The notes beneath the pieces were generated by a model. The model was not told where the DNA came from. It saw only the letters and a program-made list of their open reading frames with translations, and made no database searches. DNA of 64,000 bases from an uncultured delta proteobacterium (GTDB taxonomy: Bacteria > Desulfobacterota > Desulfobacteria > Desulfobacterales > QNYZ01), in assembly GCA_963783425.1 (NCBI GenBank), contig CAWANO010000010.1:613472-677471 (forward strand), read 5' to 3'. Shown here piece after piece: positions 7,789 to 38,023 of this stretch (positions are counted from its first letter, which is position 1; the number at the start of each line of letters is the position of its first letter). The translations under genes and the position numbers were made by a program.

Positions 7789-8943
7789 ATGAGCGTTTCC
7801 TCGTTTAGTGCCATGGAACTGTTTGATTGGCTTTGCGACCCCGCCAAGATCGATTTTCTGCTGCTCGATGTGCGCAACCAAGAGGAGTTCGGGCGCTTTA
7901 AGGTCGAAGGGCCCTTTGATTTCGAGATGCTCAACGTGCCCTATATGGAGTTTATCGAGCATGAAAAAGAGAGCGTGGCGCGGGTGCCCAAACGCGACAA
8001 GATCCGCGTGGTCTGCGCCAAGGAGGGGTCCTCCAGGTTCGTGGCCGAGATTCTCGAAAACCACGGCTACAGCGACCTGGCCAACCTGCAGGTGGGCATC
8101 AAGGCCTGGGGCAACCTGCTGGCGCCCATCAAGGTGGCCGAGACCGGCACCTACGGCCTCTACCAGTTCCGGCGCCCGGGCAAAGCTTCGTGCAGCTACG
8201 CGCTGACCTGCGGCAAGGAGATGATGGTCTTTGATCCGGCCAAGAACATCGCCGCCTACCAGCGCTTTGCCGACGAGCGCGGCCTGGCCATCATCAAGAC
8301 CGTCGAAACCCACCGCCAGGCCGACTATATCTCCGGCAGCCCGGCCCTCAACAAAACTACCGGGGCCGAGATCATCGCGCCCACGGGCGATTTCGAGGAG
8401 GCGCGCTTTCGCTACACCCCGGCCGTGGACGGCGAACCGATCGCCTTCAGCCAGGCGGGGCCCGCGGTGCGCATCGTGCACACCCCCGGCCACACCCCGG
8501 GCAGCACCTCCTACCTGATCGACAACCGATACCTCATCACCGGCGACACGGTTTTTATTTTCAGCATCGGCCGGCCCGACCTGGGCGGCATGGCCGATGC
8601 CTGGTCGAAAATGCTCTTTGATACCGTTCAGAACAAGATTCTCAAGCTCGACGACGCCACCGTCATTTTACCCGGCCACTACATGGACTGGAAAGAGGCC
8701 AATGATGACCTGATCTTCGCCGAAACCATCGGCAAGATCAAAGAGATCAACCAGGAGATTTACAACATCGACACGGAAGCCGATTTTTATCAATACATCA
8801 AGGCCAATATGCGCAAACAGCCCGAGGAGTATGCCAAGATCCGTCAGATCAACGCCGGCCTGATCGAGGTCGACCCCGAAGAACAGGATATCATGGACCT
8901 GGGCAAGAACGAGTGCGCCGCCAGCGCAATGGCACAAAGCTAA
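7789..8943 (+). CDS. rhodanese domain plus MBL-fold metallo-hydrolase (persulfide-dioxygenase-like)
   Basis: AAGGAG RBS lies upstream. The N-terminal rhodanese domain has the Cys loop 'VVCAKEGSSRF'. The MBL core includes 'ETHRQADYISG' and 'VHTPGHTPGS'. Confidence 0.8.
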   Translation: MSVSSFSAMELFDWLCDPAKIDFLLLDVRNQEEFGRFKVEGPFDFEMLNVPYMEFIEHEKESVARVPKRDKIRVVCAKEGSSRFVAEILENHGYSDLANLQVGIKAWGNLLAPIKVAETGTYGLYQFRRPGKASCSYALTCGKEMMVFDPAKNIAAYQRFADERGLAIIKTVETHRQADYISGSPALNKTTGAEIIAPTGDFEEARFRYTPAVDGEPIAFSQAGPAVRIVHTPGHTPGSTSYLIDNRYLITGDTVFIFSIGRPDLGGMADAWSKMLFDTVQNKILKLDDATVILPGHYMDWKEANDDLIFAETIGKIKEINQEIYNIDTEADFYQYIKANMRKQPEEYAKIRQINAGLIEVDPEEQDIMDLGKNECAASAMAQS

Positions 8944-9468: not shown

Positions 9469-9889
9469 TTAATCGTATAACAGCGTCATGTTTCTGTAAA
9501 TGTCGCTCTCCCGGTCGTTGTAGCCTTGATAGGAATCGTAGTTATAACCATAGTAGTTGTACTGAGCGTACAGGTTCTGGTAATAAGCATAATAATAAGA
9601 TTCCCACGCGGCATCTTCCTTGGCCGAGCCGCCTGGCGCATAGTAATATGATTGGTACTGATTATTTTTTGCATAGTAGGCGTAATACCACGAGTTGTAC
9701 CGATAAGTACTCAGAACCTGTATCGAGCGCGGCGTCAAAATAATAGCTCGAATAAGCATCATAAAGCCCCGCATAATAGGCATAGTAGCCTGTGGCATAG
9801 TAGCTCGAGGCAGCGGGAGCGGTGCTGAGAATCAGCATGCACGCAAGGCCGAATGCTAAAATAAAGGCTGTGATTTTTCGCTTATTCAT
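9469..9889 (-). CDS. secreted, extremely tyrosine-rich low-complexity protein (apparent 1-nt frameshift near 9700-9712)
   Basis: A GAGAGGGGGG RBS lies 7 nt before the ATG at 9889. The signal peptide is 'MNKRKITAFILAFGLACMLILSTAPAASS'. The Y/A/S/N/G/Q-rich sequence then continues in the +1 frame (track ORFs 9662..9985 and 9469..9798). Confidence 0.6.
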
Positions 9890-10022
9890 TTGGGTTCCCC
9901 CCTCTCTGTGCTGGATATTGTGTTGCGTTTCAGGCCAATGATTTTTCCTTTTTTTGCGAGCTTGACGAACCTCCTTTCGTTGCAATTTTTTTGGTATACC
10001 AAAGCCCTGAACAGCACCGGGT

Positions 10023-10751
10023 CTATTCGGCCGGTTTTGACCCCAAACCCGCCTCGGGCGCTGGCAACTGGAATATCGCCTTAATGTCCTCGTCAGGCAT
10101 TTTTTCCTGCAACTTGGCCTCGATCTGGCCCTGGGTTTCCTCCATGACGCGCATCATCACCTGGGGATCGGGGCGATTCGGGTCTTCGGATTCCGCCTGG
10201 ATGCGCCGCTTACCGTCCGCGGCCACCTCGCGCAGTACATTTTCGAAAATTTCCCGCTTTTCGGGGGTGGTCTCCTTCAACCAGAGCTGCAATGGCGGCA
10301 TTTGTTGGGGGCTTTGGTTGGGGAACGGCTCGGGAAGCGCCAGACGCTGTGACGATTCAGCGCCCGGGGTGGTCCAGGTGGCTTCAGCTTGCCGCTCGGG
10401 TTTGCGCGAAGGCGTCCCCTTCAGGGCATCTTTCATCTCCTCCAGCGACTGGGTAAGTCCAAAAACCTCCCAGCGAAGGGCCTCGATCTTGGGAGTCGGG
10501 TCCACCACTTCCGGGCAGCCGGAGAGGCCCGCCACCTGCGTGGCGCTTGCGGGCCGTTTGGCAAGGGCCGTCTGCAACGACTCAACCTTTCCCCGCAACG
10601 CGGCCACTTCACCCTGCAGCGTCTCGCCGATCGCCCTTACCTCACGGGTGAGCCGGGCGGAATTGCCTCTTGCGATCATAAACAAGGCGACCATAAACAC
10701 AACGGCAATGCCGGATATCCACCACAGGGAACGGTTTGAAGAGGATGCCAT
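10023..10751 (-). CDS. membrane-anchored coiled-coil protein, function unknown
   Basis: It has an N-terminal TM helix ('LWWISGIAVVFMVALFMIA') followed by a charged heptad-like segment. The overlapping plus-strand ORF 9991..10860 is S/R-rich shadow sequence. Confidence 0.5.
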   Translation of the reverse strand: MASSSNRSLWWISGIAVVFMVALFMIARGNSARLTREVRAIGETLQGEVAALRGKVESLQTALAKRPASATQVAGLSGCPEVVDPTPKIEALRWEVFGLTQSLEEMKDALKGTPSRKPERQAEATWTTPGAESSQRLALPEPFPNQSPQQMPPLQLWLKETTPEKREIFENVLREVAADGKRRIQAESEDPNRPDPQVMMRVMEETQGQIEAKLQEKMPDEDIKAIFQLPAPEAGLGSKPAE

Positions 10752-11492: not shown

Positions 11493-12402
11493 ATGATGTC
11501 ATCGCCCACACCACAACCACCCAAGCCAACGGTTACCGACGCCCGCCGCACTATAAAGTGGGTGCTGATAGTGCTGGTGCTGATGGCCGTGGCCGCCTTT
11601 TTCATATTGCCCCTCAACAGCTGTATCGAGGGTTGCGATTGTGACGAGGAGATCGTCGCGGCTATCGTGGAATTCGGTGAGCCCGACGAGGAAAACCGCA
11701 CCCTTGAAGACAATCAATTTACCGCCGAGTATATTTTCTACGACGCCGAGATCAAAAAAACCTTCGTCTGGGGCAAGGATGTCGACGTTTGCTGCTTGAA
11801 AAGCACTGAAAGATATGCGCCCGAAGATGAGGACACAGAAGATCCGGGCGATGGTGATGAGGACACAGAAGATCCGGGCGATGGTGATGAGGACACAGAA
11901 GATCCGGGCGATGGTGATGAGGACATCAGAAGATCCGGGCGATGGTGATGAGGACATAGAAGATCCGGGCGATGGTGATGAGGACACAGAAGATCCGGGC
12001 GATGGTGATGAGGACACAGAAGATCCGGGCGATGACCCTGTTGCTGAAGCACAGGTTGCCGAAGCCAAGCCGGGCGAAGAGATTGTCATCGAGCTCAAGG
12101 GGGTCGACCGCTCACCGGATTCGGAAACGGTTATGCAGGATGTGATGGCACTAGGGGTATCGGTGTTGCGGGAAGGGCTGACCTACTACCTCGAGACGCT
12201 ACCCGAAGAGGGCCAAATAACCTACCCCGCAGAGGTGAGCGAGGCCGACCTGCCCTATCAGCTCTCCGATCGCTTTGTGGAGTACACGGCGCCGGAACCG
12301 TTTACAGAGAACGATTCGTTCGAGTTCAGTGTCAGCGACGAGGCGGGGGAGGTCGAAAACCGGTCGATCGCTAAAACCGTAACCATTCAACCGGCTGAGT
12401 GA
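11493..12402 (+). CDS. membrane-anchored acidic repeat protein (EDTEDPGDGD repeats), split by a 1-nt insertion in repeat copy 4
   Basis: AAGGAGG RBS lies upstream. The TM anchor is 'WVLIVLVLMAVAAFFILPL'. Track ORFs 11493..11948 and 11815..12402 are the two halves, in frames 0 and +1. Confidence 0.55.
11829..12035 (+). repeat. 30-bp tandem repeat, about 7 copies (GAGGACACAGAAGATCCGGGCGATGGTGAT)
   Basis: Copies start at 11829, 11859, 11889, 11919 (31 bp, extra T at 11926), 11950 (C>T variant), 11980 and 12010 (truncated). Confidence 0.95.
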
Positions 12403-14850: not shown

Positions 14851-15726
14851 ATGATCGATAACGCCGACACACCCCGGGTCAACGGATTTCAATTCTTGCC
14901 GCCCAAGCTGGGAGCCTGGATCAACAGCTATATTCCCGCCGAGGATTTCGAAGGACCCATTCCGTTTCAACCACTCGCCAAACCCCTGGTCGAATCCACG
15001 CTGGCCATGGTCACCAGCGCCGGCATCAGCCTCAAGGGTGATGCGCCCTTCAACATGACACGTGAGCTTGAGGAACCACTGTGGGGCGACCCCAGCCATC
15101 GTTGTTTACCCGCCACCACCACGTCCGCCGAGATCGACGTTAATCACCTCCACATCAACACCGATTACATCAAGCAGGACATTAACGTGATTCTGCCGCT
15201 GCAGCGCCTGGACGAGCTGGTCGGGGCGGGGGAGGTCGGTGGAGTAGCGCCCACGGCCTACTCTTTTTACGGGTTTCAATGGGACCGGGATTCGTTTCTG
15301 GAAAAAAGTATCGCCCCCATGATCGCACAGATGAAGTCAGAAGCGGTGGATGCGGTGTTGCTCACTCCGGCCTGACCGTTTTGTTGCCGGTCCGTGGGAC
15401 TGGCCGCGCGCATGATCGAAGAGGCAGGCATCAGCACGGTGGTGCTTACGCCCATGCCCGAATTTCACCGCGCCGTGGGCATTCCACGCCAGGTGGCCGT
15501 GGCCTTTCCATTCGGCCGCCTGTTGGGTGAGGTCGGTGATGTCAAGACCCAAAAGCAGGTACTGCAAACGGCGCTAGGGTGGCTGGAAATGGCCAAGCGT
15601 CCCGGCCACACCCGTCACCAGCCGCTGACCTGGCCTGAATCGCCCAAGGATACCCATTGGCATCCGCCCCGGATGAGCCCGATCATTAAACATTTTTTGA
15701 GTGAGATTAAAAAAACACCGGTTTGA
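14851..15726 (+). CDS. predicted selenoprotein of the glycine/sarcosine/betaine/D-proline reductase component B (GrdB/PrdB) family
   Basis: Track ORFs 14851..15375 and 15394..15726 share one frame, interrupted by TGA (15373-15375). Read-through gives 'VDAVLLTPA-U-PFCCRSVGLAARMIEEAGISTVVL', which matches the family's 'LLT..U..C....r.iE.aGIptv' redox motif. Confidence 0.8.
15386..15404 (+). promoter_or_regulatory. candidate bacterial SECIS hairpin
   Basis: The fold is GCCGGUCC-GUG-GGACUGGC, an 8-bp stem with one G-U pair. The stem starts 10 nt after the UGA. Confidence 0.55.
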
Positions 15727-20962: not shown

Positions 20963-21328
20963 GTGCTATTTTTCGGTCAAAAATCAGCGCCCCAACACCC
21001 CTTAAAGTGATTGATTTCGGCAAGCTTTGAAAAGGCCGCGAAGCGGGGATTGAAATCTGAGGTAAACAACTGATTTATATTCTTAATAGTGCTTGTTTCC
21101 ATGGAATAAATATGCTATATATATGGCGTTTTTAATATTAACCCCACAATATATTGGATAAACAGTCAAATTTTGTTCAGCTATTGAACACTGCTGGCCG
21201 ACAGGGTTGAAATACGTTCCAATCGAAGCTCAATCAAAACCTTGAAATGAGGCTGTTTCGAACAACGTTCGGCCAAAACCGCTCTCATTTTTCAATAACC
21301 ACTTACCGGTATAAAATTATAAAATCGC

Positions 21329-21943
21329 ATGGGTTTTTTATCAACCACAAGTTCGATAACGCGCTACTTCGTCAAGGGCGACCTGGAAAACCCTATTACC
21401 GAAACGGTGACCAAAGCCCTAAAGGCCAACACCATTCAGGAGATCGACCGCAATACCGCCCAGACCAGCACCGGCTGGACATCGTTTACAACCCCCTATG
21501 CGCCGGATTTCAATGGCAATCGTTTCGTTTTTGGATCCCTTTTTATCTTTTCTCTACGGATCGATAAAAAATCGATTTCGGCCAAGGTACTCAACAAACA
21601 CATTTCTCAAGAGATGGCCCAACAAACCACCGCCACCGGGGGCGGCTTTATTTCCACGTCGCGCAAAGAGGCCATCAAGGATAAGGTTACCGATCAACTG
21701 AGTTTGCGCACCCCGGCATCGCCCAATATTTTTGATCTGGTTTGGGATTATGAAGCCCACAGTGTATGGCTCATGACCACCCAAAAAGCCGCCAACGAAG
21801 CGCTGGAATCTTTGTTCTTCAAATCTTTCAAGGTGCCCTTGATCCGACTTTTCCCCTACACCTTGGTGGAACTGCTGGGTCACTTGGATGACGCCCAAAA
21901 GGATCGATTTGCCAATTTGGCGCCCACGAAGTTCAACTCTTAA
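21329..21943 (+). CDS. RdgC-like (recombination-associated) protein, short form
   Basis: By eye it is colinear with about the N-terminal two-thirds of E. coli RdgC. Shared landmarks are 'TGW', 'RIDKKSISAKVL', 'RKEAIKDKVTDQL' and 'VWLMTTQKAANEALESLF'. Confidence 0.5.
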   Translation: MGFLSTTSSITRYFVKGDLENPITETVTKALKANTIQEIDRNTAQTSTGWTSFTTPYAPDFNGNRFVFGSLFIFSLRIDKKSISAKVLNKHISQEMAQQTTATGGGFISTSRKEAIKDKVTDQLSLRTPASPNIFDLVWDYEAHSVWLMTTQKAANEALESLFFKSFKVPLIRLFPYTLVELLGHLDDAQKDRFANLAPTKFNS

Positions 21944-21974
21944 GGCTTTTCAAATAATTTAGAAAGCGAACCCT

Positions 21975-22523
21975 ATGCTCGATGTGAGCGTGGCCTATAA
22001 CCGATACCGCTTTGTCGGTAATGAGTTTCTCACCTGGCTGTGGTTTGTGGTGGCCACCAACAGCTACATCACCTTTTTGGACAGCGGTGCAGATGATGGA
22101 TCATCCCAACTCACGCCGACCATAGGTCTGGGTGATCGCATCGTACTCAAAAATCGCCACGATCAGGGTGAAGAGACCATCACCATTACCGGCAGCGGCG
22201 CAGACTGGGAAGAGGGTGCGGTGGCACTTAAAAAGGGAGCCCAAGTCAACGAACTGGCGTTGGTCTTCGAGCAAGATCAGCACACCTGGAAAGCCACCCT
22301 GAAAGGGGAGAGTCTGCATTTGACCAGCCTCAAAACCCCCCAAGGCGGTAAAATTTACGCACCCGAAGAAACCGATGCGGCCGTGCTCGAAAAATTTTAT
22401 TTGTACGATCAGATTGTACAGTGGATCAATCAACTCTTTGACGCCTTTGTAGACCTGAGAATTTCAGACCAGTGGGAGAGCGGGCAATTGCCGGAGGTGC
22501 GACGATGGATCCATGCCTCCTAA
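21975..22523 (+). CDS. hypothetical protein, possibly related to the RdgC C-terminal region
   Basis: It is a separate ORF 31 nt after the previous gene. 'GNEFLTWLW' and the later pattern loosely parallel the C-terminal third of RdgC. The similarity is weak. Confidence 0.35.
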   Translation: MLDVSVAYNRYRFVGNEFLTWLWFVVATNSYITFLDSGADDGSSQLTPTIGLGDRIVLKNRHDQGEETITITGSGADWEEGAVALKKGAQVNELALVFEQDQHTWKATLKGESLHLTSLKTPQGGKIYAPEETDAAVLEKFYLYDQIVQWINQLFDAFVDLRISDQWESGQLPEVRRWIHAS

Positions 22524-22804
22524 CGGCGGCCCGCATAGTGTAGATGGTTCGCGGCGGTTGAATCCACCCGTTACCAACAATATTGGTCTAAAAGTCCGGC
22601 GTTTATGAACAAGTTCTCAAATAATGTTTAAAAAATCGTTTTTTTTAACTTCATATGAACAATATTTTAAAATAATTTTAAAAAAACTCTTTAATAATTT
22701 CAATCAATTATTATATTTTAATCATTTTGACAGCCACCAATCATCATCTCTTAATAATTAAAATAAAAATATAGGTAAAGCTGAAAACAAACGCGAGGCG
22801 AACC

Positions 22805-23923
22805 ATGCAAATCACCATCAATCGGGATGACATTATTCAGGTTTTGGCCAATGTGCAGGGCTTAACCAACCGCAAAAGCAATCTGGCCATTACGGCCAAT
22901 GTGTTGATTCGGACCGACAGTGAAGGGGTCCGCATAACGGCCACCGATCTTGAGACCGGATTCGAAGGTTACTATCCCGCCGTGGTGGGTCGTGAAGGCG
23001 CCGTTACCATCAATGCCCGAAAACTGTTCGAGATCGTGCGCGATTTTCCTATTCAGGAGATCAAACTGGAGGAGATCAAAAACGGTTGGATTGAAATCGG
23101 CAGCGGCAAGGTGATGTATCACATTGTAAGCCTTAATCCGGATGAATTTCCTGACTCGCCCGAGATCGATGATGTCCGCTCTTTCGATATGGAAAGCGGC
23201 CATTTCAAAAAGATGATCGACAAAACCGTTGGGATTGTGGGTGAAAGTGACGACAAGCGCGCTCACATCATCGGTAACTGCCTGGAGAAGGTCAAAGAGG
23301 GCGGAAAAAATATCGTGCGCATGGTGGCCACTGATGGCGGGCGGTTGTCGAAAATGGATTGTGTATATGGTGACGGCGTCGATCTACCTCTGGACAACCC
23401 CGTGCTTATTCCCAAAAAAGGGCTGATGGAGGTTTCAAAATTTCTCAGGCGTGACGGCATCGTAAATCTCGGCCTCAAAGACAATAAATTTGTCGTCAAA
23501 CAGGAGCGCGAAACCTTGATCGTGCGACTGCTGGAAGGCGTCTTTCCCGATTATGCCAAAGTGGTTTGGAGAGATATTCAGAGCGATATCCTGGTGCCCA
23601 AGCAACCCCTTTTCATGATGGTCAAACGCATGTCGATCCTGGCCACAGAGACCTATCGCGCCGTAAAATTCCGGTTTGAAGATGACTGCCTGCATATCGA
23701 CTCAACCAACCCTGACATCGGCGACTCCAAGGAACACATGGAGATTGAATTTAAGCGTAAACCGTTGGAGATGGCCTTTAATCCACGGTTTTTTATCGAC
23801 GCGCTTAATGTCATCGATGAAGAAAATGTGATTTTGAACATCTCCAATGAATCCAGGCCTTGTCTGATCGAGGCCGAAAATGACAAATCCTATCTGGGCG
23901 CTATCATGCCCATGCACGTTTAA
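22805..23923 (+). CDS. dnaN: DNA polymerase III subunit beta (sliding clamp)
   Basis: It is 372 aa with the typical clamp pattern: 'LAITANVLI', 'ATDLE', 'MVATDGGRLS' and 'PDY..V'. It ends '...YLGAIMPMHV'. Confidence 0.95.
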   Translation: MQITINRDDIIQVLANVQGLTNRKSNLAITANVLIRTDSEGVRITATDLETGFEGYYPAVVGREGAVTINARKLFEIVRDFPIQEIKLEEIKNGWIEIGSGKVMYHIVSLNPDEFPDSPEIDDVRSFDMESGHFKKMIDKTVGIVGESDDKRAHIIGNCLEKVKEGGKNIVRMVATDGGRLSKMDCVYGDGVDLPLDNPVLIPKKGLMEVSKFLRRDGIVNLGLKDNKFVVKQERETLIVRLLEGVFPDYAKVVWRDIQSDILVPKQPLFMMVKRMSILATETYRAVKFRFEDDCLHIDSTNPDIGDSKEHMEIEFKRKPLEMAFNPRFFIDALNVIDEENVILNISNESRPCLIEAENDKSYLGAIMPMHV

Positions 23924-23940
23924 ACGGGAAAAATAGAGAT

Positions 23941-26383
<2,443 letters not shown>

Positions 26384-26531
26384 ACGTAAATGGTATAATC
26401 TTGTTTTGTCGTTTTATAAAGCGGGTTGATATTTCAGGTGCCCACCCATAAACAGTCGCGCATGCACAACGGCAAACCATCCATCCAGTTCACTACAATC
26501 CCGTCTCAACTGGTTCGTTTGGGAAAAGGCC

Positions 26532-27215
26532 ATGAACATCATTGAACCCCAGGTCGACATCCTGTTTGCGCCCGACGGCGACGCGATTCTAAAACACCTC
26601 GAACTGGCGGCCCGCACCTGCTATAAATCTGAAGAAAAGATCACCAAGGATTCCGCCACCGGCCTGATCCGGGCGCTGATCCGATCTGGGCACCACAGTG
26701 TTATCGAGCACAGCAGCCTGTCGGTGCGGATCACCTGCGACCGCGGCATCTCGCATGAGATTGTGCGGCACAGACTCTGTTCTTTCAGCCAGGAAAGCAC
26801 CCGTTACGCCAATTACGCCAAGCAGAAGTTCGGGCGCGAGATCACCGTTATTCGGCCCTTCTTCTGGCGGGAGCAGGATCCGAAATACCTTCTTTGGTTC
26901 AAGGCCATGCGTGCTGCGGAAGAGGCGTATCTGGCATTGATCGACGCCGGTGCCACGGCCCAGGAGGCACGCAGTGTTCTACCCAACAGCCTAAAAACCG
27001 AAATCGTGGTGACGGCCAATCTACGCGAATGGCGGCACATATTCGCCTTGCGTTGCGCCAAAGCCTCCCACCCCCAGATTCGACAGGTCATGTTGCCGCT
27101 GCTGGACACGTTCAATCAGAAAATTCCCGTGATCTATGACGATCTTGCTAAAAAATTCCGCGAAGATATCCAACGATTCGGTCAAAAAGCAGCCATTCAC
27201 ATCACCATCAGCTAA
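26532..27215 (+). CDS. thyX: FAD-dependent thymidylate synthase
   Basis: It has 'SGHHSVIEH' and the ThyX motif 'RHRLCSFSQESTRY'. Confidence 0.9.
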   Translation: MNIIEPQVDILFAPDGDAILKHLELAARTCYKSEEKITKDSATGLIRALIRSGHHSVIEHSSLSVRITCDRGISHEIVRHRLCSFSQESTRYANYAKQKFGREITVIRPFFWREQDPKYLLWFKAMRAAEEAYLALIDAGATAQEARSVLPNSLKTEIVVTANLREWRHIFALRCAKASHPQIRQVMLPLLDTFNQKIPVIYDDLAKKFREDIQRFGQKAAIHITIS

Positions 27216-27334
27216 CACGATTTTACTTGCCTTTCGAAAATTTCGGTTTTATGGTAATGTAATGGACGCTGTAACCATATAGACGTTAACATTTTCTGGA
27301 TTAGGTAGCTGCTACTGAGTGAAAGGAGAATAGC

Positions 27335-28336
27335 ATGAAAAAAGTTTTCTTTTGCCTTGCTGTGATCGGACTGGTGGTCGCTGTAACCACGAGCGCCATG
27401 GCGGCCACGACACTGCGCGAATTGGGTCGCAGCCCGTTTTACAAACCGCCGCTGACCTCCGTCGATGATTTGTACAAGATGGTGGATGAGAGCCAGGCCT
27501 CAATTCAAGAGGGCTTTGCCAAGGCCGGCATGGCCGGTCTTTTTCCGGTATTCACTGAGCAATTCCCCACCGCAGACATCGAAAGCATTCAGGTTGAGCC
27601 TGGCACAAAACTCGAGTGGATGCTCTTTCGCAAAAACGGTAAGGGTTCGGTGCGGGTGGCCAAGGATGTCACCTGGGCCGGAGAAGCGCCTTTTGAGGCC
27701 TATCGCTTCTACCTGGATTCGGCCGGCAAGCGCTACGAGATGGTGGTGCCGTTGATCTGCGCCAACCTGGCCCTGGCGAAAACGGGAGATATTCCTTCCC
27801 CACCACCCCCGCCACCACCGCCACCACCGCCACCCAAACCCGAGGCCAAGCCCCCAGTGACCCCACCACCCGTGGTGGAAGAGGTCGCTCCGGAAGCCAG
27901 ACGTTTGTGGCCGGTTGCCACTTTGGGTTTCATGCGTCTACACGACCCGGCCAACTTTCTGCCCATTCGCGCCGGTGTCGAGTACGCTTTGATGGACAAG
28001 CTTACCTTGCTGGGCCTGCTGGGATTTAACGTACACTTGGATGGCAACCATGGCGACGACGCCTTTTCCGCCGACTTGCTGTTGCACTACCATATCCCCT
28101 CGCGCTTTTTCATCGGTGGCGGACTTGGATATTGGTACATGGAAGACGACACGCTGCAGGCGGAATATCTGGACGGCAGCCATATCGATCTGATCCTGCA
28201 ATTAGGCGCGCGCGTCTTCGGCCAACCCGAGGACTTCAACATCTCCCTGTATGGTGAAGGGCGCGCTTATGCTGACGAACTCAGCGACATGGACATCAAC
28301 GGCCGCTGGAGCGTCGGGTTGCTGTTCCGATTCTAA
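27335..28336 (+). CDS. secreted outer-membrane-type protein with a poly-proline linker
   Basis: AAGGAG RBS lies upstream. The signal peptide is 'VVAVTTSAMA'. A run of 12 consecutive prolines follows. The C-terminal region has beta-strand periodicity and ends '...WSVGLLFRF', the aromatic terminal residue typical of beta-barrel OMPs. Confidence 0.6.
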   Translation: MKKVFFCLAVIGLVVAVTTSAMAATTLRELGRSPFYKPPLTSVDDLYKMVDESQASIQEGFAKAGMAGLFPVFTEQFPTADIESIQVEPGTKLEWMLFRKNGKGSVRVAKDVTWAGEAPFEAYRFYLDSAGKRYEMVVPLICANLALAKTGDIPSPPPPPPPPPPPPKPEAKPPVTPPPVVEEVAPEARRLWPVATLGFMRLHDPANFLPIRAGVEYALMDKLTLLGLLGFNVHLDGNHGDDAFSADLLLHYHIPSRFFIGGGLGYWYMEDDTLQAEYLDGSHIDLILQLGARVFGQPEDFNISLYGEGRAYADELSDMDINGRWSVGLLFRF

Positions 28337-28378
28337 GGTAACAGCCAGCGTCTCAGCGTAAACAAGCCTAAAACAAAA

Positions 28379-28411
28379 GCCCCCTTTCCCTAAGGAGAGG
28401 GGGCTTTTGTT
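28379..28411. terminator. bidirectional Rho-independent terminator between convergent genes
   Basis: GCCCCCTT (10-nt loop) GAGGGGGC is followed by TTTTGTT. An A-rich tract lies on the other side. Confidence 0.7.
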
Positions 28412-28474
28412 ATGGTTCATCACCCCCGTGGGGGCGCCAAGCATGGCTTTCCCAAAATTCATGCCATTTCGGGG

Positions 28475-29851
28475 CTAAAACTCGATACTGCCCGGCGTGC
28501 GCGGAAAGGGGATGACATCGCGAATATTGACGATACCGGTCACCAGCATCACCAGCCGCTCGAAGCCCAACCCGAAACCGCTGTGGGGCACGCTGCCGTA
28601 GCGGCGCGACTCCAGATACCACCAGTAGGGCTCCTTGGGCAGATCCAACTCGGCCATGCGCGTTTCGAGCATAGTTAGGCGCTCCTCGCGCTGGCTACCA
28701 CCGATGAGTTCGCCCACCTCCGGCACCAGCACATCCATGGCCGCCACGGTGCGGTTGTCGTCATTGAGGCGCATATAAAAGGGCTTGATAGTCTTGGGAT
28801 AATCATGGACGATGACGGGGCGTTTGAAATGGTGTTCGGTCAGGTATTTTTCGTGTTCGCTCTGCAGGTCGTTGCCCCAAGCGGCCGGGTAGGCGAATTT
28901 ATGTTTGGCGCGCTCCAAAATATCCACCGCTTCGCTGTAGGGCAGGCGTACAAAATCGTTGTCGATGATATTGTCCAAACGCTGTTGTAAGCTTCTATCG
29001 ACAAAACGGGCGAACAGCTCGATATCCTCAGCGCAGTGGCGCAGGGCGTAATCGGCCAGATAGCGCACTATCTTCTCGCCCAGATCCATGTTCCCGGCGG
29101 CATCGCAGAAGGCCATTTCCGGTTCAACCATCCAGAATTCGGCCGCATGGCGGCGTGTATTGGAATTTTCTGCTCGAAAGGTCGGACCGAAGGTGTAGAC
29201 GTCGCCCAGGCTGAGCGCGAACATCTCCGCTTCCAGCTGTCCAGAGACGGTCAGATTGGCCTCCTGGCCAAAAAAGTCGGCTGAAAAATCGGCCCAGGCG
29301 CCATCTTTGGGCGAGAGGTTGCTGACCCGGAACATCTCTCCGGCACCCTCGCAGTCCGATCCGGTGATGATTGGCGTGTGGATGTAGCGAAAGCCATGCT
29401 CGTGGAAAAAATGGTGGATGGCATAGCACAGTTCCGAGCGGATGCGAAAAACCGCCCCGTATTTGTTGGTGCGTGGCCGCAGATGGGCGATGGTGCGCAG
29501 GTACTCATCGCTGTGGCGTTTTTTCTGCAAGGGATACTCGGCCGGCGCCGATCCGATCAATACCACCTTGTCGGCTTTGACCTCCCATAACTGTCCTTTG
29601 CCAGGCGAAGCCACCAGGGCGCCCTGCACCGAAACGGCCGCGCCCGTACCGATATTTTTCATTTCGGCATAGGTGGGAAGATCACCGTCCACCACCACTT
29701 GAATGTTTTTCAAACAGGAACCGTCGTTGATCTCGAGAAAAGAGAAGCCCTTGGCATCTCGCCGCGTGCGTATCCAACCTTTTAGCAAGATCTTATCCCT
29801 CGCCGCCGGCGCATTGAGTAACTGATTGATTTTACTTGTTTCGATAGTCAT
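28475..29851 (-). CDS. asnS: asparagine--tRNA ligase
   Basis: It is a class IIb aaRS with an OB fold ('GWIRTRRDAKGFSFLEINDGS'). AsnRS-type motifs are 'FRVS', 'TFGPTFRAENS', 'GGSQRE' and 'GFGLGFERL'. Confidence 0.9.
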   Translation of the reverse strand: MTIETSKINQLLNAPAARDKILLKGWIRTRRDAKGFSFLEINDGSCLKNIQVVVDGDLPTYAEMKNIGTGAAVSVQGALVASPGKGQLWEVKADKVVLIGSAPAEYPLQKKRHSDEYLRTIAHLRPRTNKYGAVFRIRSELCYAIHHFFHEHGFRYIHTPIITGSDCEGAGEMFRVSNLSPKDGAWADFSADFFGQEANLTVSGQLEAEMFALSLGDVYTFGPTFRAENSNTRRHAAEFWMVEPEMAFCDAAGNMDLGEKIVRYLADYALRHCAEDIELFARFVDRSLQQRLDNIIDNDFVRLPYSEAVDILERAKHKFAYPAAWGNDLQSEHEKYLTEHHFKRPVIVHDYPKTIKPFYMRLNDDNRTVAAMDVLVPEVGELIGGSQREERLTMLETRMAELDLPKEPYWWYLESRRYGSVPHSGFGLGFERLVMLVTGIVNIRDVIPFPRTPGSIEF

Positions 29852-31242
29852 ATGGGTACCGTTAGATTGTAGAGTTGATTGTTGCGTTGCACCAGTAACA
29901 CCACCGATGGGTGATGGCGATATTTGACCAGGGTTTTGCGCAAGAGTTGGCTGGAATCGACGCGGATATCGTTGATTTGGCGAATAATATCGCCCGGACG
30001 CACACCGATGCGGGCCAGTTCGCTACCGGTATCCACCTGGGTGATCATGACCCCGCCGCCTTCGTTTGATGCCTCCGCCACCGTGATGCCCAGCAGCAGG
30101 TGTGGCAACCGTGCGACCAGCTCTTCGGGGAAATCGGCTGTGATCACGGATACTTTCCGGGAGGCGCCATTGCGCCAGAGGCGGATATTGAGGGATTGCC
30201 CGGCGGAAAATCTTTTGATCAGCAAGCGGTAAGCGTTGGTCGAGGGCAACGGGCGGTCGTCGATGGCCAGAACCACATCGCCCTCGACGATGCCGGCCAG
30301 CCCGGCGGGGCTGTCGGGGAAAACGGACTTAACCACCAGCCCGCCGTCGCGGTATTCACTTTCTGGCAGCTTCAGGTAGTTGATCAGGGTGTCGTCCAGG
30401 GGCTGCAGGGTCAGGCCAAGCCAGACTGGCACCACCTCGCCATGGGTAATGAGGTCGGCGATAATCTTGCGAGCCTGGGCCACAGGGATGGCGAAACCAA
30501 TGCCCTGAGCCTTGGCGTAGATAGCCGTGTTGATGCCGATCAACTCACCGGTGATGTCGAGCAGCGGACCACCGCTGTTGCCTGGGTTGATCGAAGCGTC
30601 GGTTTGGATGAAGTCACGGTGCACATAGCGGTCGGTTCGAATGGTGCGGTTGAGAGCGCTGATGACACCCGTGGTGACCGAGTTGGAAAAACCGAAAGGG
30701 TTTCCGATGGCGATCACCGTCTCTCCGATAAGCAGCTTGCGATCGGCGCCCAGAGCGACAGATGGGAGGGGCTCTTGCGAGGCGATGCGCAGCACTGCCA
30801 GGTCGGATTCCGGGTCAACACCCACGATCTCGGCCTCGAACTGGCGCTGGTCTTGCAGCATGACCGATATTTGGGCGGTGTTGTCGATCACATGGGCGTT
30901 GGTGAGAATGAATCCTTTTTGACCATCGATGATTATGCCGGACCCCAGGCTGGCGCGCTGAGGGCGGGGTTCGTAGCCCGGTTCGAAAAAATCCTTAAAA
31001 AAAGAGTCGAAAAAGGGATTGAGGCCTAAGCCCGGAAACGGCGAGCGGCGAAGGTTTTGCTGACGGGCCGTGCTGATATTGACCACGGCTGGTCCCACCC
31101 GCTGAACGGCCTTGACGACGGGGGTTTCGTAGATGGTCTGGTTAACGTCGCTTTGGGCAATTGCCAGACCCGTTAAGAGCAGTGACGCTAAAAATGCGTT
31201 GAAAACGCTTGCAATATTGATTTTTAGGTGTGGTTTTGACAT
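29848..31242 (-). CDS. DegP/HtrA-family periplasmic serine protease with two PDZ domains
   Basis: 'TNAHV', 'DLAVLRI' and 'GNSGGPLL' form the catalytic triad context. Two PDZ-like segments follow. The signal peptide starts at the ATG at 31242; the track ORF begins at the GTG at 31278. Confidence 0.85.
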   Translation of the reverse strand: MSKPHLKINIASVFNAFLASLLLTGLAIAQSDVNQTIYETPVVKAVQRVGPAVVNISTARQQNLRRSPFPGLGLNPFFDSFFKDFFEPGYEPRPQRASLGSGIIIDGQKGFILTNAHVIDNTAQISVMLQDQRQFEAEIVGVDPESDLAVLRIASQEPLPSVALGADRKLLIGETVIAIGNPFGFSNSVTTGVISALNRTIRTDRYVHRDFIQTDASINPGNSGGPLLDITGELIGINTAIYAKAQGIGFAIPVAQARKIIADLITHGEVVPVWLGLTLQPLDDTLINYLKLPESEYRDGGLVVKSVFPDSPAGLAGIVEGDVVLAIDDRPLPSTNAYRLLIKRFSAGQSLNIRLWRNGASRKVSVITADFPEELVARLPHLLLGITVAEASNEGGGVMITQVDTGSELARIGVRPGDIIRQINDIRVDSSQLLRKTLVKYRHHPSVVLLVQRNNQLYNLTVPI

Positions 31243-31283
31243 AATAAATCTTTTTTTAATTATCACAGATAGCCTCACATACC

Positions 31284-33845
31284 ATGCCCGATACCGTGCT
31301 TCAAGACATCCTGAGCGGTGTGCGCCAGCCCAGCCGTTACCTGGGTCACGAGGTGAACCATATGCGCAAGGATCCTCAAAGCGTGCGCCTGAAGGTGGCC
31401 TTGGCCTTTCCCGATCTTTATGAGATAGGCACCTCTCACTTCGGCCTTCAGATTCTCTACAGCTTGCTCAACGCGCGCCCGGAAATCGCAGCGGAACGCG
31501 TTTTTGCACCTGATCTGGATATGGAGGCACAGCTGCGCCGCTACAGGCGACCGTTGATGAGTCTCGAATCGAAGCGGCCCTTAGATCAATTCGACATAAT
31601 CGGCTTTAGCCTGCTCTCAGAGCTCAACTACACCAATGTGCTATACATGCTCGATTTGGCACGGATACCGTTTCGGGCTGAGCATCGTGAACAGTGCCAC
31701 CCCCTGGTGATTGCCGGCGGGCCCTGTATGTTCAACCCGGAGCCGGTGGCGGACTTTTTCGACGCCATTGTTGTCGGTGACGGCGAAGAGGCCATCCTGG
31801 CCATGGCCGATGCCTGGCTGATGTGGCAAACCGAGGGAGATGGATATCGCAAGAGCCTGTTGCAGCAGTGGCGGGGCGTTGCCGGGGTTTACATCCCTGC
31901 CTTCTACGAGACCACATTCGATGGTAAGGGCCTGCCGCACACCGCACCGCGCGATCGGTCCCGGACCGGCGTCCGCCGGGCGATCTTATCCGACCTGGCC
32001 AAAATACCCCCTCCGGACGACCCCATCGTGCCCTATGGTCGGCCGGTTCATGACCGCCTGCGGGTGGAGGTGGCGCGGGGGTGCACGCGCGGGTGCCGGT
32101 TCTGCCAAGCGGGCATGATCTACCGTCCGGTTCGCGAACGTTCGCTGGGCAACCTGCTTGATTATACCACCAGGGCGCTGGGCAACACCGGTTTTGACGA
32201 GTTGTCGCTGCTCTCCCTGAGCACCGGTGATTACAGCTGTATCGAACCCTTGATGACCCGGCTTGGCGAGCGGTTTACGCGGCAGCACAACGCCATCAGT
32301 TTGCCATCATTGCGGGTGGACACTCTTTCCGACGAAATGATCGACTTGATCAAGTCGGTGCGCAAGACCGGTTTTACCATGGCCCCCGAGGCCGGCAGCC
32401 AGCGGCTGCGCGACGTCATCAACAAGAATATCCGCCAAACGGAAATTTTTGATACGGTCAGGCGGGTGTTTGAACATGGCTGGCGGCTGATCAAGCTCTA
32501 TTTCATGATCGGGCTGCCCACCGAGCGTGACACCGACCGGGCCGCCATTGCCGAACTGGCTCGAGAGCTGCGCCATATTCGGATGTCTCACCTGAAATCG
32601 CCCCCGGCATTGAACATCAGCGTGGCCACCTTTATTCCCAAGGCACATACACCCTTTCAATGGATGGCCCAAATGGCGCCGGATGAGGCCACGGATGCGC
32701 TGGAGCGGCTCAGGGCGCAGGTTAAACGCACGGGCGCCCGCTTCAAATGGCAGGATCCACTGACCAGTTATCTTGAGGGTGTTTTTTCACGCGGCGATCG
32801 GCGCTTGTCGCACCTGCTCGAAAAAGCCCACGCACTGGGGTGTCGCTTCGATGGCTGGAGCGACCACTTCGATTTCGAGCGCTGGCAGAGCGCCATGACC
32901 CAAAGCGGTGTTGATCCGGCCTTTTACACCACCCGCCGCCGGAATCTTGACGAGCCCCTGCCATGGGAGCATATCGATTCCGGGGTGAGCAAGGCTTATC
33001 TTGGCGATGAGTTGACGCGGGCGCTGGCCGGTGATCTAACCCCAGACTGCCGATTGGGACAGTGCAATCAGTGCGGGGTTTGCGATTTCGACACGATTGC
33101 TCCGGTGGTGCACACTTGTGAGACCCCAACGCCCACCGGTGCGGCAACGGAACCGGTGAATGCGCGCGCCGAGGGCACGCCGGCCCAAACCCTGCGGATC
33201 ACCTTCACCAAGACAGGGTCAGCCCGGTTCTTCGGCCACCTGGAGATGGTCAACATATTCACGCGTGCCCTGAAGCGCAGCCGGGTATCGGTGGCGTTCA
33301 GCCATGGATTTCACCCCAAACCCAAGATCCGCTTCGAGGATTCGTTGCCGGTGGGAATGGAGAGTCTGGCCGAAAGCATGTGGGTACAGGTGGTTTGCCC
33401 GGTGGACCCCCAAGCTCTTGCGACGATGCTCAACGGCACGCTTCCCCCGGGGTTGGCCGTTGTTGGTTGTCGGGTGAGCTCATTGCAGCGCAGCAAAACC
33501 AATGCCGAGCCGGTTACCTACCACATTCAACGCAACCAGGGGCGCTTTGAGAAAGCGGCCCTGAAGCGCTTCAACGACGCGGCGCAATGGGTGGCTGAAA
33601 AATCAAGTCCCAAGCGACCCGCACGGCGCATCGATCTCAAAGCGGCCGTAGGTGCCTTACACCTGTTGGCCGATGACACCCTTTGTATGACCTTGAAACC
33701 CAGCGGGGAGGCGCTGGTGCGGCCGGCCCTGGTGCTGGGCGCCCTGTTCGGGCTCAGCCCGCTGGAGATTACGCAGTTACGCATCGTCAAGCAACCATTG
33801 GCGCAACCCAGCAAGGATGGCATTCAGGCATGTTACGGCAATTGA
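31284..33845 (+). CDS. B12-binding-domain radical SAM protein fused to a radical-SAM-associated C-terminal domain
   Basis: 'VEVARGCTRGCRFCQAG' is the CxxxCxxC cluster. The N-terminal part is B12-binding-like. The C-terminal ~230 aa ('LRITFTKTGSARFFGHLEMVNIF') resembles the DUF2344-type partner domain. Confidence 0.8.
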   Translation: MPDTVLQDILSGVRQPSRYLGHEVNHMRKDPQSVRLKVALAFPDLYEIGTSHFGLQILYSLLNARPEIAAERVFAPDLDMEAQLRRYRRPLMSLESKRPLDQFDIIGFSLLSELNYTNVLYMLDLARIPFRAEHREQCHPLVIAGGPCMFNPEPVADFFDAIVVGDGEEAILAMADAWLMWQTEGDGYRKSLLQQWRGVAGVYIPAFYETTFDGKGLPHTAPRDRSRTGVRRAILSDLAKIPPPDDPIVPYGRPVHDRLRVEVARGCTRGCRFCQAGMIYRPVRERSLGNLLDYTTRALGNTGFDELSLLSLSTGDYSCIEPLMTRLGERFTRQHNAISLPSLRVDTLSDEMIDLIKSVRKTGFTMAPEAGSQRLRDVINKNIRQTEIFDTVRRVFEHGWRLIKLYFMIGLPTERDTDRAAIAELARELRHIRMSHLKSPPALNISVATFIPKAHTPFQWMAQMAPDEATDALERLRAQVKRTGARFKWQDPLTSYLEGVFSRGDRRLSHLLEKAHALGCRFDGWSDHFDFERWQSAMTQSGVDPAFYTTRRRNLDEPLPWEHIDSGVSKAYLGDELTRALAGDLTPDCRLGQCNQCGVCDFDTIAPVVHTCETPTPTGAATEPVNARAEGTPAQTLRITFTKTGSARFFGHLEMVNIFTRALKRSRVSVAFSHGFHPKPKIRFEDSLPVGMESLAESMWVQVVCPVDPQALATMLNGTLPPGLAVVGCRVSSLQRSKTNAEPVTYHIQRNQGRFEKAALKRFNDAAQWVAEKSSPKRPARRIDLKAAVGALHLLADDTLCMTLKPSGEALVRPALVLGALFGLSPLEITQLRIVKQPLAQPSKDGIQACYGN

Positions 33846-35398: not shown

Positions 35399-35405
35399 TC
35401 ATAAT
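35376..35405 (+). promoter_or_regulatory. candidate sigma70-type promoter for rpmH-rnpA
   Basis: TTGACA (35376-35381), an 18-nt spacer and CATAAT (35400-35405) lie about 78 nt upstream of the rpmH ATG in an AT-rich spacer. This is sequence resemblance only. Confidence 0.3.
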
Positions 35406-35482
35406 TAATGTTTATATTTATGACATCAGAGATAAACTCGACACTTAAACTTGTTTCAGGATAATTATAGAGGACATATAAG

Positions 35483-35617
35483 ATGAAACGCACCTATCAG
35501 CCCAGTCGTATCAAGCGGGCACGAAAGCATGGTTTTTTAAAACGGATGTCGAGCAAGCAGGGGCGTCGCGTTATCAATCGTCGGCGGGCCAAAGGGCGCA
35601 AGCGGTTGGCCGTGTGA
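35483..35617 (+). CDS. rpmH: 50S ribosomal protein L34
   Basis: This gene is not in the ORF track because it is under 60 aa. It translates to [44 protein letters not shown]. Confidence 0.95.
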
Positions 35618-35979
35618 TCGAAGCCGGACAGCGATTTCGCAAAAGCGAGCGATTGCGAAAACGGCATGAATTCACCCATTTGACCCGTAGTGGATATCAG
35701 TGCCAGGATCGGAATTTTATCATTCGCTATGGGGTCAACGACTACGACCGCGCACGCCTTGGCGTCACCGCGACAAAGCGCATCGGCGGCGCCGTCACCC
35801 GCAATCGCCTCAAACGGGTTTTACGTGAATTTTTCAGAACCCATCGATTTCGGGTGGCCATCGGCGTTGATTACAACATCATCGTCAAAAGCGGTGCTGT
35901 AACACTGACGACCGACCAAATTTTCAAAGCGCTCGAAGCGCTGTTTGATGAGATTTCCAATCGGATCAACACTGCATAA
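35614..35979 (+). CDS. rnpA: ribonuclease P protein component
   Basis: The start overlaps the rpmH stop. The basic protein reads '[12 protein letters not shown]...[23 protein letters not shown]'. Confidence 0.85.
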
Positions 35980-38007: not shown

Positions 38008-38023
38008 AGTGAAGGGAGTATTC

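What the first reader, a model, noticed from the sequence alone, without database searches (positions are those of the whole stretch)
9469..9889. Secreted protein made of about one-third tyrosine, currently split by a frameshift
A strong RBS and a clear Sec signal peptide (MNKRKITAFILAFGLACMLILSTAPAASS) lead into SYYATGYYAYYAGLYDAYSSYYFDAALDTGSEY.

The same composition then continues only in the +1 frame: (Y)RYNSWYYAYYAKNNQYQSYYYAPGG...YYYAYYQNLYAQYNYYGYNYDSYQGYNDRESDIY. Deleting one T from 'TACTTA' (plus-strand 9704-9709) joins the two parts.

I do not recognise such a Tyr/Ala/Asn/Gln low-complexity exported protein. Possible roles are a cross-linkable (dityrosine) matrix, an adhesive, an amyloid-like component or a redox-active component. 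The gene sits in an AT-rich, poorly conserved-looking patch.
Basis: seen in the sequence. Interest (0 to 1): 0.6.

Follow-up and report, generated by a model that had tools for sequence, protein, structure and literature searches.

The report
Tyrosine-packed exported helical protein with partner
This is a real gene for an exported protein that is one-third tyrosine and predicted to fold as a four-helix bundle; it belongs to a very rare, unnamed family that always follows a membrane-anchored partner gene, and its "frameshift" is most likely an assembly error.

Summary
On the minus strand, 9889->9469, a ribosome-binding site and signal peptide lead into a Tyr-rich reading frame that continues only in another frame.

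The break is one extra base, C9712 on the plus strand. A metagenome homologue (83% identical, 139 aa) reads straight through the junction, as do about 16 more distant relatives.

The same 64 kb also has frame breaks in gyrB, in jag/khpB and in a tandem-repeat gene. The part downstream of the break has dN/dS 0.17. The break is therefore most likely an assembly indel, not gene decay.

The repaired mature protein is 110 aa and 32% Tyr, acidic, with no Cys or His. Its aromatic residues follow a heptad spacing. AlphaFold2 predicts a confident four-helix bundle (pLDDT 87.5), so it is not a disordered or amyloid-like polymer.

In all 11 loci with enough sequence, the gene follows a 207-253 aa protein with an N-terminal membrane anchor, proline-rich linkers and a conserved C-terminal helical domain.

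Neither protein matches Pfam, NCBIfam, PHROGs, PADLOC or any solved structure. Function is unknown. My inference is a tethered envelope module.

The parts
9469..9889 (-). Gene for the Tyr-rich exported protein. It gives 139 aa once the extra base at 9712 is removed; the mature part is 110 aa, 32% Tyr, net charge -6, with no Cys or His.
   Evidence: Intact 139-aa homologue P0001/L001 at 83% identity and 100% coverage.
9712..9712 (-). Single extra base (C on the plus strand, G on the coding strand) that splits the gene into two frames. Probably an assembly indel.
   Evidence: DNA alignment with L001. All homologues are continuous across this junction. Other broken genes lie in the same window.
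9803..9889 (-). Sec-type signal peptide, MNKRKITAFILAFGLACMLILSTAPAASS. It has a basic n-region, a hydrophobic core and a small-x-small cleavage motif, with no twin-arginine motif and no fitting lipobox.
   Evidence: Read from the sequence. The same layout and an AxA-type site are present in all 17 family members. No signal-peptide predictor was available.
9897..9906 (-). Shine-Dalgarno-like GAGAGGGGGG, 7 nt upstream of the ATG.
   Evidence: read from the sequence.
10023..10751 (-). Conserved partner gene (242 aa). It has a short N-tail, one hydrophobic anchor, a long helix, proline-rich linkers and a C-terminal helical domain. It lies 133 nt upstream on the same strand.
   Evidence: The same gene order is seen in L003-L012.
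10671..10727 (-). Partner's N-terminal hydrophobic anchor (residues 9-27, LWWISGIAVVFMVALFMIA).
   Evidence: Hydropathy scan over 20 homologues. AlphaFold2 helix 5-64.
10062..10304 (-). Partner's conserved C-terminal helical domain (about residues 150-230; W..PEKRE..REVA..RIQAESEDPNRPD..VMEETQ..KL..MPDED). I propose it as the docking site for the Tyr-rich bundle.
   Evidence: It is the only well-conserved part of the partner alignments and the only part with pLDDT 80-90. The docking role is inferred, not shown.

Best explanation
**What it is.** The locus is an intact two-gene module whose second gene looks broken only because of an assembly indel at 9712.

**Gene 2 (9889->9469).** It encodes a Sec-exported, acidic protein of about 110 aa in which Tyr makes up about a third of the residues. 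It is predicted to fold as an up-down four-helix bundle, with Tyr filling the core and much of the helix surfaces.

**Gene 1 (10751->10023).** It encodes a single-anchor membrane protein with a long helix and proline-rich spacers. These carry a small conserved C-terminal helical domain.

**Shown here**
- The gene is real and the family exists.
- The gene pairing is invariant across loci.
- The Tyr spacing is helical.
- The fold prediction is confident.
- Neither protein has any known relative.

**Inferred**
- The partner faces the periplasm (N-in, C-out).
- Its C-terminal domain docks the Tyr-rich bundle and tethers it at a distance from the inner membrane.
- The Tyr-coated surfaces let the bundle self-associate or bind envelope polymers, giving a structural or protective envelope component.

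**How likely.** About 0.8 that the gene is intact in the cell. About 0.8 that this is a genuine new two-gene family with a helical-bundle product. Only about 0.25 for the tethered envelope-scaffold mechanism.
For: **The break is an artefact**
- The intact homologue has exactly the repaired length, and the window carries one extra base relative to it.
- Codons 60-139, downstream of the break, have dN/dS 0.17 at dS 0.67 in the repaired frame.
- gyrB is split inside its DNA_gyraseB domain, beside an A6 run. jag/khpB is split between the Jag_N and KH-R3H domains. A 30-bp tandem-repeat gene is also split. All are in the same 64 kb.

**The family is real**
- A full HMMER scan of 1.84 billion representative proteins and a profile search together give about 17 distinct members. 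They are 133-166 aa and 22-42% Tyr, all with signal peptides.

**The fold**
- AlphaFold2 gives pLDDT 87.5 and pTM 0.74, with four helices after the signal peptide.
- Independently, aromatic periodicity peaks at 3.5 and 2.4 residues.

**The partner**
- It lies immediately upstream on the same strand in the window and in L003-L012, which is 11 loci. L001 holds its last codons as well.
- The wider gene context differs between loci.
- The partner profile finds 21 clusters and nothing else.
- Its C-terminal domain is the conserved and confidently modelled part.
Against: - No reads were available, so a true mutation at 9712 cannot be excluded. The site is not a homopolymer, unlike the gyrB and jag breaks.
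- The AlphaFold2 alignment had only 6 sequences, and idealised helical sequences can score high without being right.
- The partner's topology is ambiguous by the positive-inside rule. Lys+Arg total 23 on the N-flank against 28 on the C-flank over 20 homologues, and the window's own copy has 1 against 4. If its bulk is cytoplasmic, it cannot dock the mature exported protein.
- No interaction was modelled or measured.
- A correlation of pairwise identities between the two proteins is not robust (Pearson 0.78, Spearman 0.22).
- Nothing in the loci points to a specific substrate or process.
Confidence: 0.6

Rival explanations
1. True pseudogene. The extra base at 9712 is a real, recent mutation in this organism, so the Tyr-rich protein is no longer made here. 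At most a 76-aa truncated product would be made.
For: - The frame break is in the deposited sequence.
- It is not in a homopolymer, the usual site of long-read indel errors.
- The module is accessory and patchily distributed, sometimes next to integrases and transposases, so its loss would be tolerable.
Against: - An essential gene (gyrB) and two other genes are also frame-broken within 64 kb, which shows the assembly itself is indel-prone.
- The downstream part shows purifying selection (dN/dS 0.17) and carries no further stops or indels relative to L001.
- The partner gene is intact.
Confidence: 0.2
2. The protein is a low-complexity, largely unstructured secreted polymer. It would be oxidatively cross-linked through dityrosine, or would form an adhesive or amyloid-like extracellular matrix.
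For: - Extreme Tyr content.
- Known Tyr-rich structural proteins do form high-mass assemblies. Examples are Bacillus CotC/CotU and the coccidian oocyst-wall proteins GAM56/GAM82 (PMC7944565; PMC2726925, listed).
- Many Tyr must be surface-exposed, because Tyr occupies more heptad positions than a core needs.
Against: - Heptad periodicity and a confident helical-bundle model argue for a folded protein.
- No peroxidase, laccase or tyrosinase gene is linked to the cassette in any locus.
- There is no outer-membrane secretion system in the cassette, so the default location is the periplasm.
- There are no Gln/Asn-rich beta repeats like those of curli.
- Cross-linking of folded bundles remains possible and overlaps with the best explanation.
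Confidence: 0.12
3. Ligand-storage or metal-binding bundle. By analogy with copper storage proteins, whose four-helix-bundle core is lined by one residue type, the Tyr and Asp/Glu residues would bind hard metal ions (Fe3+, Mn3+ and similar) or aromatic or quinone ligands.
For: - It is an exported four-helix bundle dominated by a single ligand-capable residue.
- It is acidic, with net charge -1 to -13 across the family.
- Csp1 is an exported four-helix bundle that binds 13 Cu(I) through Cys in its core (PMC7558416).
- The weak fold neighbours include ligand-binding bundles: the PcaY sensor domain, cytochrome c' and SmbP.
Against: - Tyr side chains would fill the core, leaving no cavity.
- There is no His or Cys.
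- No transporter, metal sensor or metallochaperone gene is consistently linked.
- The fold matches are non-specific, with best E-value 0.24.
Confidence: 0.08
4. Periplasmic radical sink or hole-hopping element. The dense Tyr array would scavenge oxidants or relay oxidising equivalents, protecting an anaerobe's envelope.
For: - In the window the module sits near rubrerythrin, a pyridine-nucleotide disulphide oxidoreductase and a rhodanese/MBL protein.
- In L008 it lies next to SoxY.
Against: - The neighbourhood is not conserved across loci.
- No redox cofactor site is present.
- The idea is purely compositional.
Confidence: 0.06
5. Programmed +1 ribosomal frameshift that produces the full-length protein from the sequence as it stands.
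For: The two frames join into a conserved protein.
Against: - Every homologue, including one 83% identical, has a single continuous frame.
- There is no slippery or stop-codon context at TCT-GAG-TAC.
Confidence: 0.02

Closest known systems
Copper storage proteins Csp1/Csp3 (four-helix bundles with a Cys-lined core)
   Same: Both are small four-helix bundles. Csp1-type proteins are exported to the periplasm, and one residue type dominates the helix faces (PMC7558416; predicted fold here).
   Different: - No sequence or specific fold similarity.
- The dominant residue is Tyr, not Cys; the family has 0-2 Cys.
- The signal is Sec-type rather than Tat.
- It has an obligatory membrane-anchored partner.
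- No link to copper.
Tyr-rich structural proteins cross-linked or assembled into resistant layers (Bacillus spore coat CotC/CotU; coccidian oocyst-wall GAM56/GAM82)
   Same: Very high Tyr content in a protein that works outside the cytoplasm (PMC7944565; PMC2726925, listed).
   Different: - No homology.
- These organisms are diderm bacteria: TolC-like OEP and a YidC periplasmic domain in the window, Omp85/TamB in L009.
- Lys and Arg are scarce, whereas CotC/CotU are also Lys- and Asp-rich (from my own knowledge).
- Predicted to be a compact helical bundle.
- No cross-linking enzyme is linked.
TonB/TolA-type periplasm-spanning anchors (compared with the partner protein)
   Same: Both have an N-terminal single membrane anchor, an extended helical and proline-rich spacer, and a small C-terminal domain.
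   Different: - No match to TonB or TolA domains. The only hit is a sub-threshold coiled-coil match to TolA_bind_tri at E 0.07.
- No ExbBD or TolQR genes are adjacent.
- The C-terminal domain is all-helical.
- Topology is unproven.
Spy/CpxP/ZraP periplasmic helical chaperones (compared with the partner's C-terminal domain)
   Same: Both are small, charged, all-helical periplasmic domains. Here the domain sits next to an aggregation-prone client-like protein.
   Different: - No hit to the LTXXQ or Metal_resist families, even at E 10.
- The partner is membrane-anchored.
- The resemblance is recalled from memory, not measured.

Membership tests
Copper storage protein (Csp1/Csp3) | Many Cys (13-20 Cu(I) sites) lining the core of the four-helix bundle | tested here: not met
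   Mature family members have 0-2 Cys; the window protein has 0.
Copper storage protein (Csp1/Csp3) | Four-helix-bundle fold | tested here: met
   AlphaFold2 model with four helices, pLDDT 87.5. This is a prediction only.
Copper storage protein (Csp1/Csp3) | Sequence or profile similarity to the family; Tat signal for exported Csp1 | tested here: not met
   No Pfam or NCBIfam hit and no PDB sequence hit. The n-region is KRK with no twin-arginine motif.
Tyr-rich spore-coat proteins CotC/CotU | Firmicute sporulation protein without a signal peptide, rich in Tyr, Lys and Asp | tested here: not met
   A signal peptide is present. Lys+Arg number only 1-5 per mature protein. Diderm markers are present in the window and in related loci.
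Curli-type functional amyloid (CsgA-like) | Gln/Asn-rich imperfect beta-strand repeats and a csgB/E/F/G secretion and nucleation apparatus | tested here: not met
   Predicted all-helical with 3.5-residue aromatic periodicity. No Pfam hit. The only conserved neighbour is the partner gene.
Sec-exported protein (signal peptidase I substrate) | Basic n-region, hydrophobic h-region, small residues at -3 and -1 | tested here: met
   By inspection in all 17 members: APAASS|Y, APAALG|Y, PKAEA|T, TPAQA|Y, PQAHA|T. No predictor was available and cleavage was not shown.
TonB/TolA-like anchors (partner) | TonB_C or TolA domain III, and linkage to ExbBD or TolQR | tested here: not met
   No such Pfam hit at E up to 10. 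The neighbours in the window and in L009-L012 lack these genes.
Spy/CpxP/ZraP (partner C-terminal domain) | Match to the LTXXQ or Metal_resist profile | tested here: not met
   No hit in four members at E up to 10. PDB profile and fold searches were non-specific.
Programmed +1 frameshift gene | Frameshift site conserved in homologues, with a slippery or stalling context | tested here: not met
   All homologues are in one frame. There is no stop or rare-codon context.

The most novel reading that the evidence does not exclude
The two genes would define a previously unknown kind of bacterial envelope module. A natural four-helix bundle built largely from tyrosine would be held in the periplasm by a dedicated membrane tether. 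Its dense Tyr array would do chemistry or materials work that no known bacterial protein does. Possible roles are reversible Tyr-Tyr cross-linking into a protective layer, radical or hole buffering, or aromatic stacking onto envelope glycans.
Probability: 0.2. Interest if true: 0.75.

Novelty: categorically new. Interest (0 to 1): 0.55.

Why it matters
- **An unusual fold.** Natural proteins that are 30-40% tyrosine yet predicted to fold into a compact helical bundle are very unusual. They would be a new test case for how aromatic-only cores and surfaces pack. They could also serve as a template for designed redox-active or cross-linkable materials.
- **A small testable system.** The strict pairing with a membrane-anchored partner gives two genes, about 1.3 kb, that can be expressed together.
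- **A practical warning.** The frameshift is most likely not biology. This assembly carries about one frame-breaking indel per 16 kb, including one in gyrB, so apparent pseudogenes in it should not be taken at face value.

Tried and rejected
- **Family and fold libraries.**
  - The Tyr-rich protein has no hit in Pfam, NCBIfam, PHROGs or PADLOC. The partner has none at significance; its best Pfam E-value is 0.02.
  - PDB sequence profiles gave nothing below E 0.17.
  - Foldseek against PDB gave only generic helical bundles, with best E 0.24 for the Tyr-rich model and 1.9 for the partner.
- **Collection scans.**
  - Two scans of the 185,579-species genome collection confirmed no relative.
  - The window's own genome was not found either. 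This is therefore weak evidence of absence, and I could not name the organism.
  - The viral contig scan found nothing.
- **Exact look-ups.** Look-ups of window proteins to recover the source record failed.
- **Sample accessions.** A literature search for the sample accessions found nothing.
- **Upstream motifs.** A search for a shared promoter or operator motif upstream of the partner gene in 9 loci gave only chance-level k-mers. The promoter and terminator scan around the locus was uninformative.
- **Sigma-54 promoter.** I considered one in the conserved intergenic block (TGGCCTGAAACGCAAC). The GG-to-GC spacing is 2 nt too short, so I rejected it by inspection.
- **Co-divergence.** The mirror-tree test was inconclusive.
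- **Heptad register.** No single clean register could be assigned. Tyr occupies four or more of the seven positions.
- **Lipoprotein reading.** I rejected it because the Cys sits inside the h-region, the lipobox does not fit, and the Cys is not conserved.
- **Foreign AT-rich island.** I rejected this reading because the partner is 61% GC and the low GC of the gene follows from its TAY codons.

Full report
**1. The observation**

On the minus strand, a Shine-Dalgarno-like GAGAGGGGGG (9906-9897) precedes ATG 9889. The frame reads MNKRKITAFILAFGLACMLILSTAPAASS, then YYATGYYAYYAGLYDAYSSYYFDAALDTGSEY. It then runs into unrelated residues and stops at 9662.

A second frame carries STYRYNSWYYAYYAKNNQYQSYYYAPGGSAKEDAAWESYYYAYYQNLYAQYNYYGYNYDSYQGYNDRESDIYRNMTLLYD, ending at TAA 9471-9469.

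Among 508 stop-free stretches of at least 60 codons in all six frames of the window, these two have 22 and 11 Tyr in their best 60-residue window. The 99th percentile is 6. The plus strand holds only 31-58 codon ORFs here.

**2. Where the break is, and whether it is biological**

A search of 5.8 billion protein clusters returned two hits:
- P0001, an intact 139-aa protein that is 83% identical over 100% of the repaired query.
- P0002, the 104-aa fragment that the source genome's annotators called, on a 1,091,574-bp contig.

P0001 lies on a 2-kb metagenome contig (L001). That contig is syntenic with the window: the same rhodanese/MBL gene lies downstream.

The DNA alignment shows one difference in length inside the gene. 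The window has an extra G on the coding strand (C9712 on the plus strand) in TCT-G-AGT. The true junction is therefore DTGS-STYRYN.

Three lines of evidence say the break is probably an assembly artefact:
- **Homologues are continuous.** Every other family member reads through the junction in one frame.
- **The downstream part is under selection.** Against L001, codons 60-139 have dS 0.67 and dN 0.11, giving dN/dS 0.17 in the repaired frame. There are no further indels or stops.
- **The assembly is indel-prone.** Other genes in the same 64 kb are also broken:
  - gyrB is split inside the DNA_gyraseB domain. Profile positions 1-93 fall in ORF 23941-24951 and positions 98-172 plus Toprim and GyrB_C fall in ORF 24896-26383. 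The break is beside an A6 run.
  - jag/khpB is split between Jag_N (37985-38365) and KH+R3H (38280-38873).
  - A tandem-repeat gene is split inside its repeat.

That makes four frame breaks in 64 kb, one of them in an essential gene. This is the signature of uncorrected indel errors.

A real recent mutation cannot be excluded without reads. The 9712 site is not a homopolymer. I put the chance of a true pseudogene at about 0.2. A programmed frameshift is effectively excluded by the homologues.

**3. The protein and its family**

An exhaustive HMMER scan of 1.84 billion representative proteins with P0001 found only six sequences at E <= 1e-3. A profile search added six more. A scan of JGI metagenome contigs added two loci. 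Look-ups through the partner gene added four more.

The 17 distinct members share these features:
- a basic n-region, a hydrophobic core and an AxA-type cleavage site;
- a mature length of 103-135 aa;
- 22-42% Tyr (window 32%) and 11-18% Ala;
- net charge -1 to -13, with 1-5 Lys+Arg, at most one His and 0-2 Cys.

Conserved landmarks are YDAYSSYY in the first helix, the loop YAPSGS, and a C-terminal YRGLA..Y motif.

No member matches Pfam, NCBIfam, PHROGs or PADLOC or any PDB sequence. HMMER's composition filters may hide some relatives, so the rarity is approximate.

**4. The fold**

The aromatic-residue indicator, averaged over the 17 mature sequences, has sharp spectral peaks at 3.5 and 2.4 residues. 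These are the second and third harmonics of a heptad.

AlphaFold2, run on a six-sequence alignment, gives mean pLDDT 87.5 and pTM 0.74. Block means are 88-98 through the mature part. After the signal helix it predicts helices 25-57, 60-83, 89-112 and 118-137, an up-down four-helix bundle.

Foldseek against PDB returns only generic bundles with E >= 0.24. They include a designed helical protein, the PcaY sensor domain, PsbQ, cytochrome c', Kusta0087/88 and SmbP.

Tyr occupies four or more of the seven heptad positions. Tyr must therefore fill the core and also coat much of the surface.

The picture is a folded, Tyr-packed and Tyr-coated helical bundle, not a disordered or amyloid-like polymer. 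The caveat is that the alignment is shallow and idealised helices tend to score well.

**5. A conserved partner**

In the window, a 242-aa ORF (10751-10023) lies 133 nt upstream on the same strand. Homologous genes of 207-253 aa sit immediately upstream of the Tyr-rich gene in L003, L004, L005, L006, L007, L008, L009, L010, L011 and L012. L001 retains its last 28 codons.

A profile of the partner finds 21 clusters and nothing else, none with a Pfam domain.

Its architecture is as follows:
- a 5-12 residue N-tail;
- one hydrophobic segment;
- a long helix;
- proline-rich low-confidence linkers;
- a conserved C-terminal helical domain (residues about 150-230, pLDDT about 80-90).

Profile and fold searches against PDB are non-specific.

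The surrounding genes differ completely between loci:
- L010: RNase G, SecDF, DprA and TopA.
- L009 and L012: DUF1326, integrase, IS elements and HigB.
- L011: transposases, Prim-Pol and integrase.
- L008: SoxY.
- The window: rhodanese/MBL, rubrerythrin, an oxidoreductase and a TolC-like OEP.

The conserved unit is therefore exactly these two genes. The hosts are diderm, as shown by OEP, the YidC periplasmic domain and Omp85/TamB.

**6. How it most likely works**

Shown:
- a two-gene module;
- an exported product with helical Tyr spacing and a confident bundle prediction;
- a partner with a membrane anchor, spacers and a conserved terminal domain.

Inferred:
- The partner is N-in/C-out. This is the usual orientation for a hydrophobic segment a few residues from the N-terminus, but the positive-inside count is ambiguous (23 against 28).
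- Its C-terminal domain docks the bundle, holding it in the periplasm at the end of a long flexible tether.
- The Tyr-rich surface mediates self-association, oxidative cross-linking or stacking onto envelope polymers.

I give this tethered envelope-scaffold reading about 0.25.

Rivals:
- **Classic unstructured dityrosine matrix or adhesive.** Argued against by the fold evidence and by the absence of any linked oxidase.
- **Csp-like storage bundle.** There is no Cys or His, and a Tyr core leaves no cavity.
- **Radical sink.** The supporting neighbourhood is seen only in the window and in L008.

**7. Comparison with known systems**

- **Csp1.** The nearest analogy in form is Csp1, an exported four-helix bundle whose core is lined by a single residue type (PMC7558416). 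Membership fails on Cys content, signal type and sequence.
- **Tyr-rich structural proteins.** CotC/CotU (PMC7944565) and the coccidian oocyst-wall proteins (PMC2726925, listed) share only composition.
- **The partner.** It resembles TonB/TolA in layout only. It does not match Spy/CpxP-type profiles.

**8. Verdict**

The gene is real and very probably intact in the organism. It belongs to a rare, unannotated family that forms an invariant pair with an equally unannotated membrane-anchored protein.

By every library available here it has no known relative, so I rate it categorically new at the family level. Its function remains unknown and its fold class is common. Interest is 0.55.

The organism could not be named. 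The genome-collection scans did not recover the source genome, and exact look-ups of window proteins failed.

Noticed in passing
window 23941-26383 (+), break near 24875-24899: gyrB is split into two overlapping ORFs in different frames, in the middle of the DNA_gyraseB domain and beside an A6 run. A broken essential gene points to an assembly indel error.
   Followed up: yes
window 37985-38873 (+), break near 38350-38365: jag/khpB is split between its Jag_N part and its KH+R3H part, near an A5 run. This is another likely indel error.
   Followed up: partly
window 11493-12402 (+); tandem repeat 11826-12034: Two overlapping ORFs appear to be one gene. It has an N-terminal hydrophobic segment, 6.9 copies of a 30-bp repeat (DEDTEDPGDG) and a Big_9 Ig-like domain. 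The frame changes inside the repeat array.
   Followed up: partly
window 14851-15726 (+), TGA at 15373-15375: A GrdB-family ORF ends in TGA and continues in frame for another 117 codons (...LLTPA-TGA-PFCCRSVG...). This is a candidate selenoprotein with a U-x-x-C motif. No SECIS element was searched for.
   Followed up: partly
window 9679-9825 (minus strand) against L001 cols 190-336 of alignment A1: The window and L001 are identical over 147 nt covering the end of the signal peptide and the first helix and a half, apart from the extra base. The 3' half of the same gene has dS 0.67. The neighbouring gene is 90-98% identical, so this may be recombination, a chimeric metagenome contig or nucleotide-level constraint. 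It remains unexplained.
   Followed up: partly
L009 11948-12547, L011 5676-9698 and 13277-17804, L012 2352-2780 and 5112-5966: In three related loci the two-gene module lies next to integrase, transposase or Prim-Pol genes. This suggests it can travel on mobile or variable regions.
   Followed up: no
L008 1216-1497: A SoxY (sulphur-oxidation carrier) gene lies directly downstream of the module, on the opposite strand. The window has a rhodanese/MBL gene in the equivalent position (7789-8943).
   Followed up: no
window 21000-40500: Genes typical of a chromosomal origin region are present: dnaN 22805-23923, gyrB, yidC 36331-38007, jag and mnmE 38936-40417. There is also a lower-GC stretch at 21-24 kb. 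No tRNA gene and no Rfam family was found anywhere in the 64 kb.
   Followed up: partly
window 51215-55399 (+): An unusually long 1394-aa ORF has PPDK_N and PEP-utiliser mobile domains only in its last 440 residues. The first 950 residues or so have no Pfam match.
   Followed up: no
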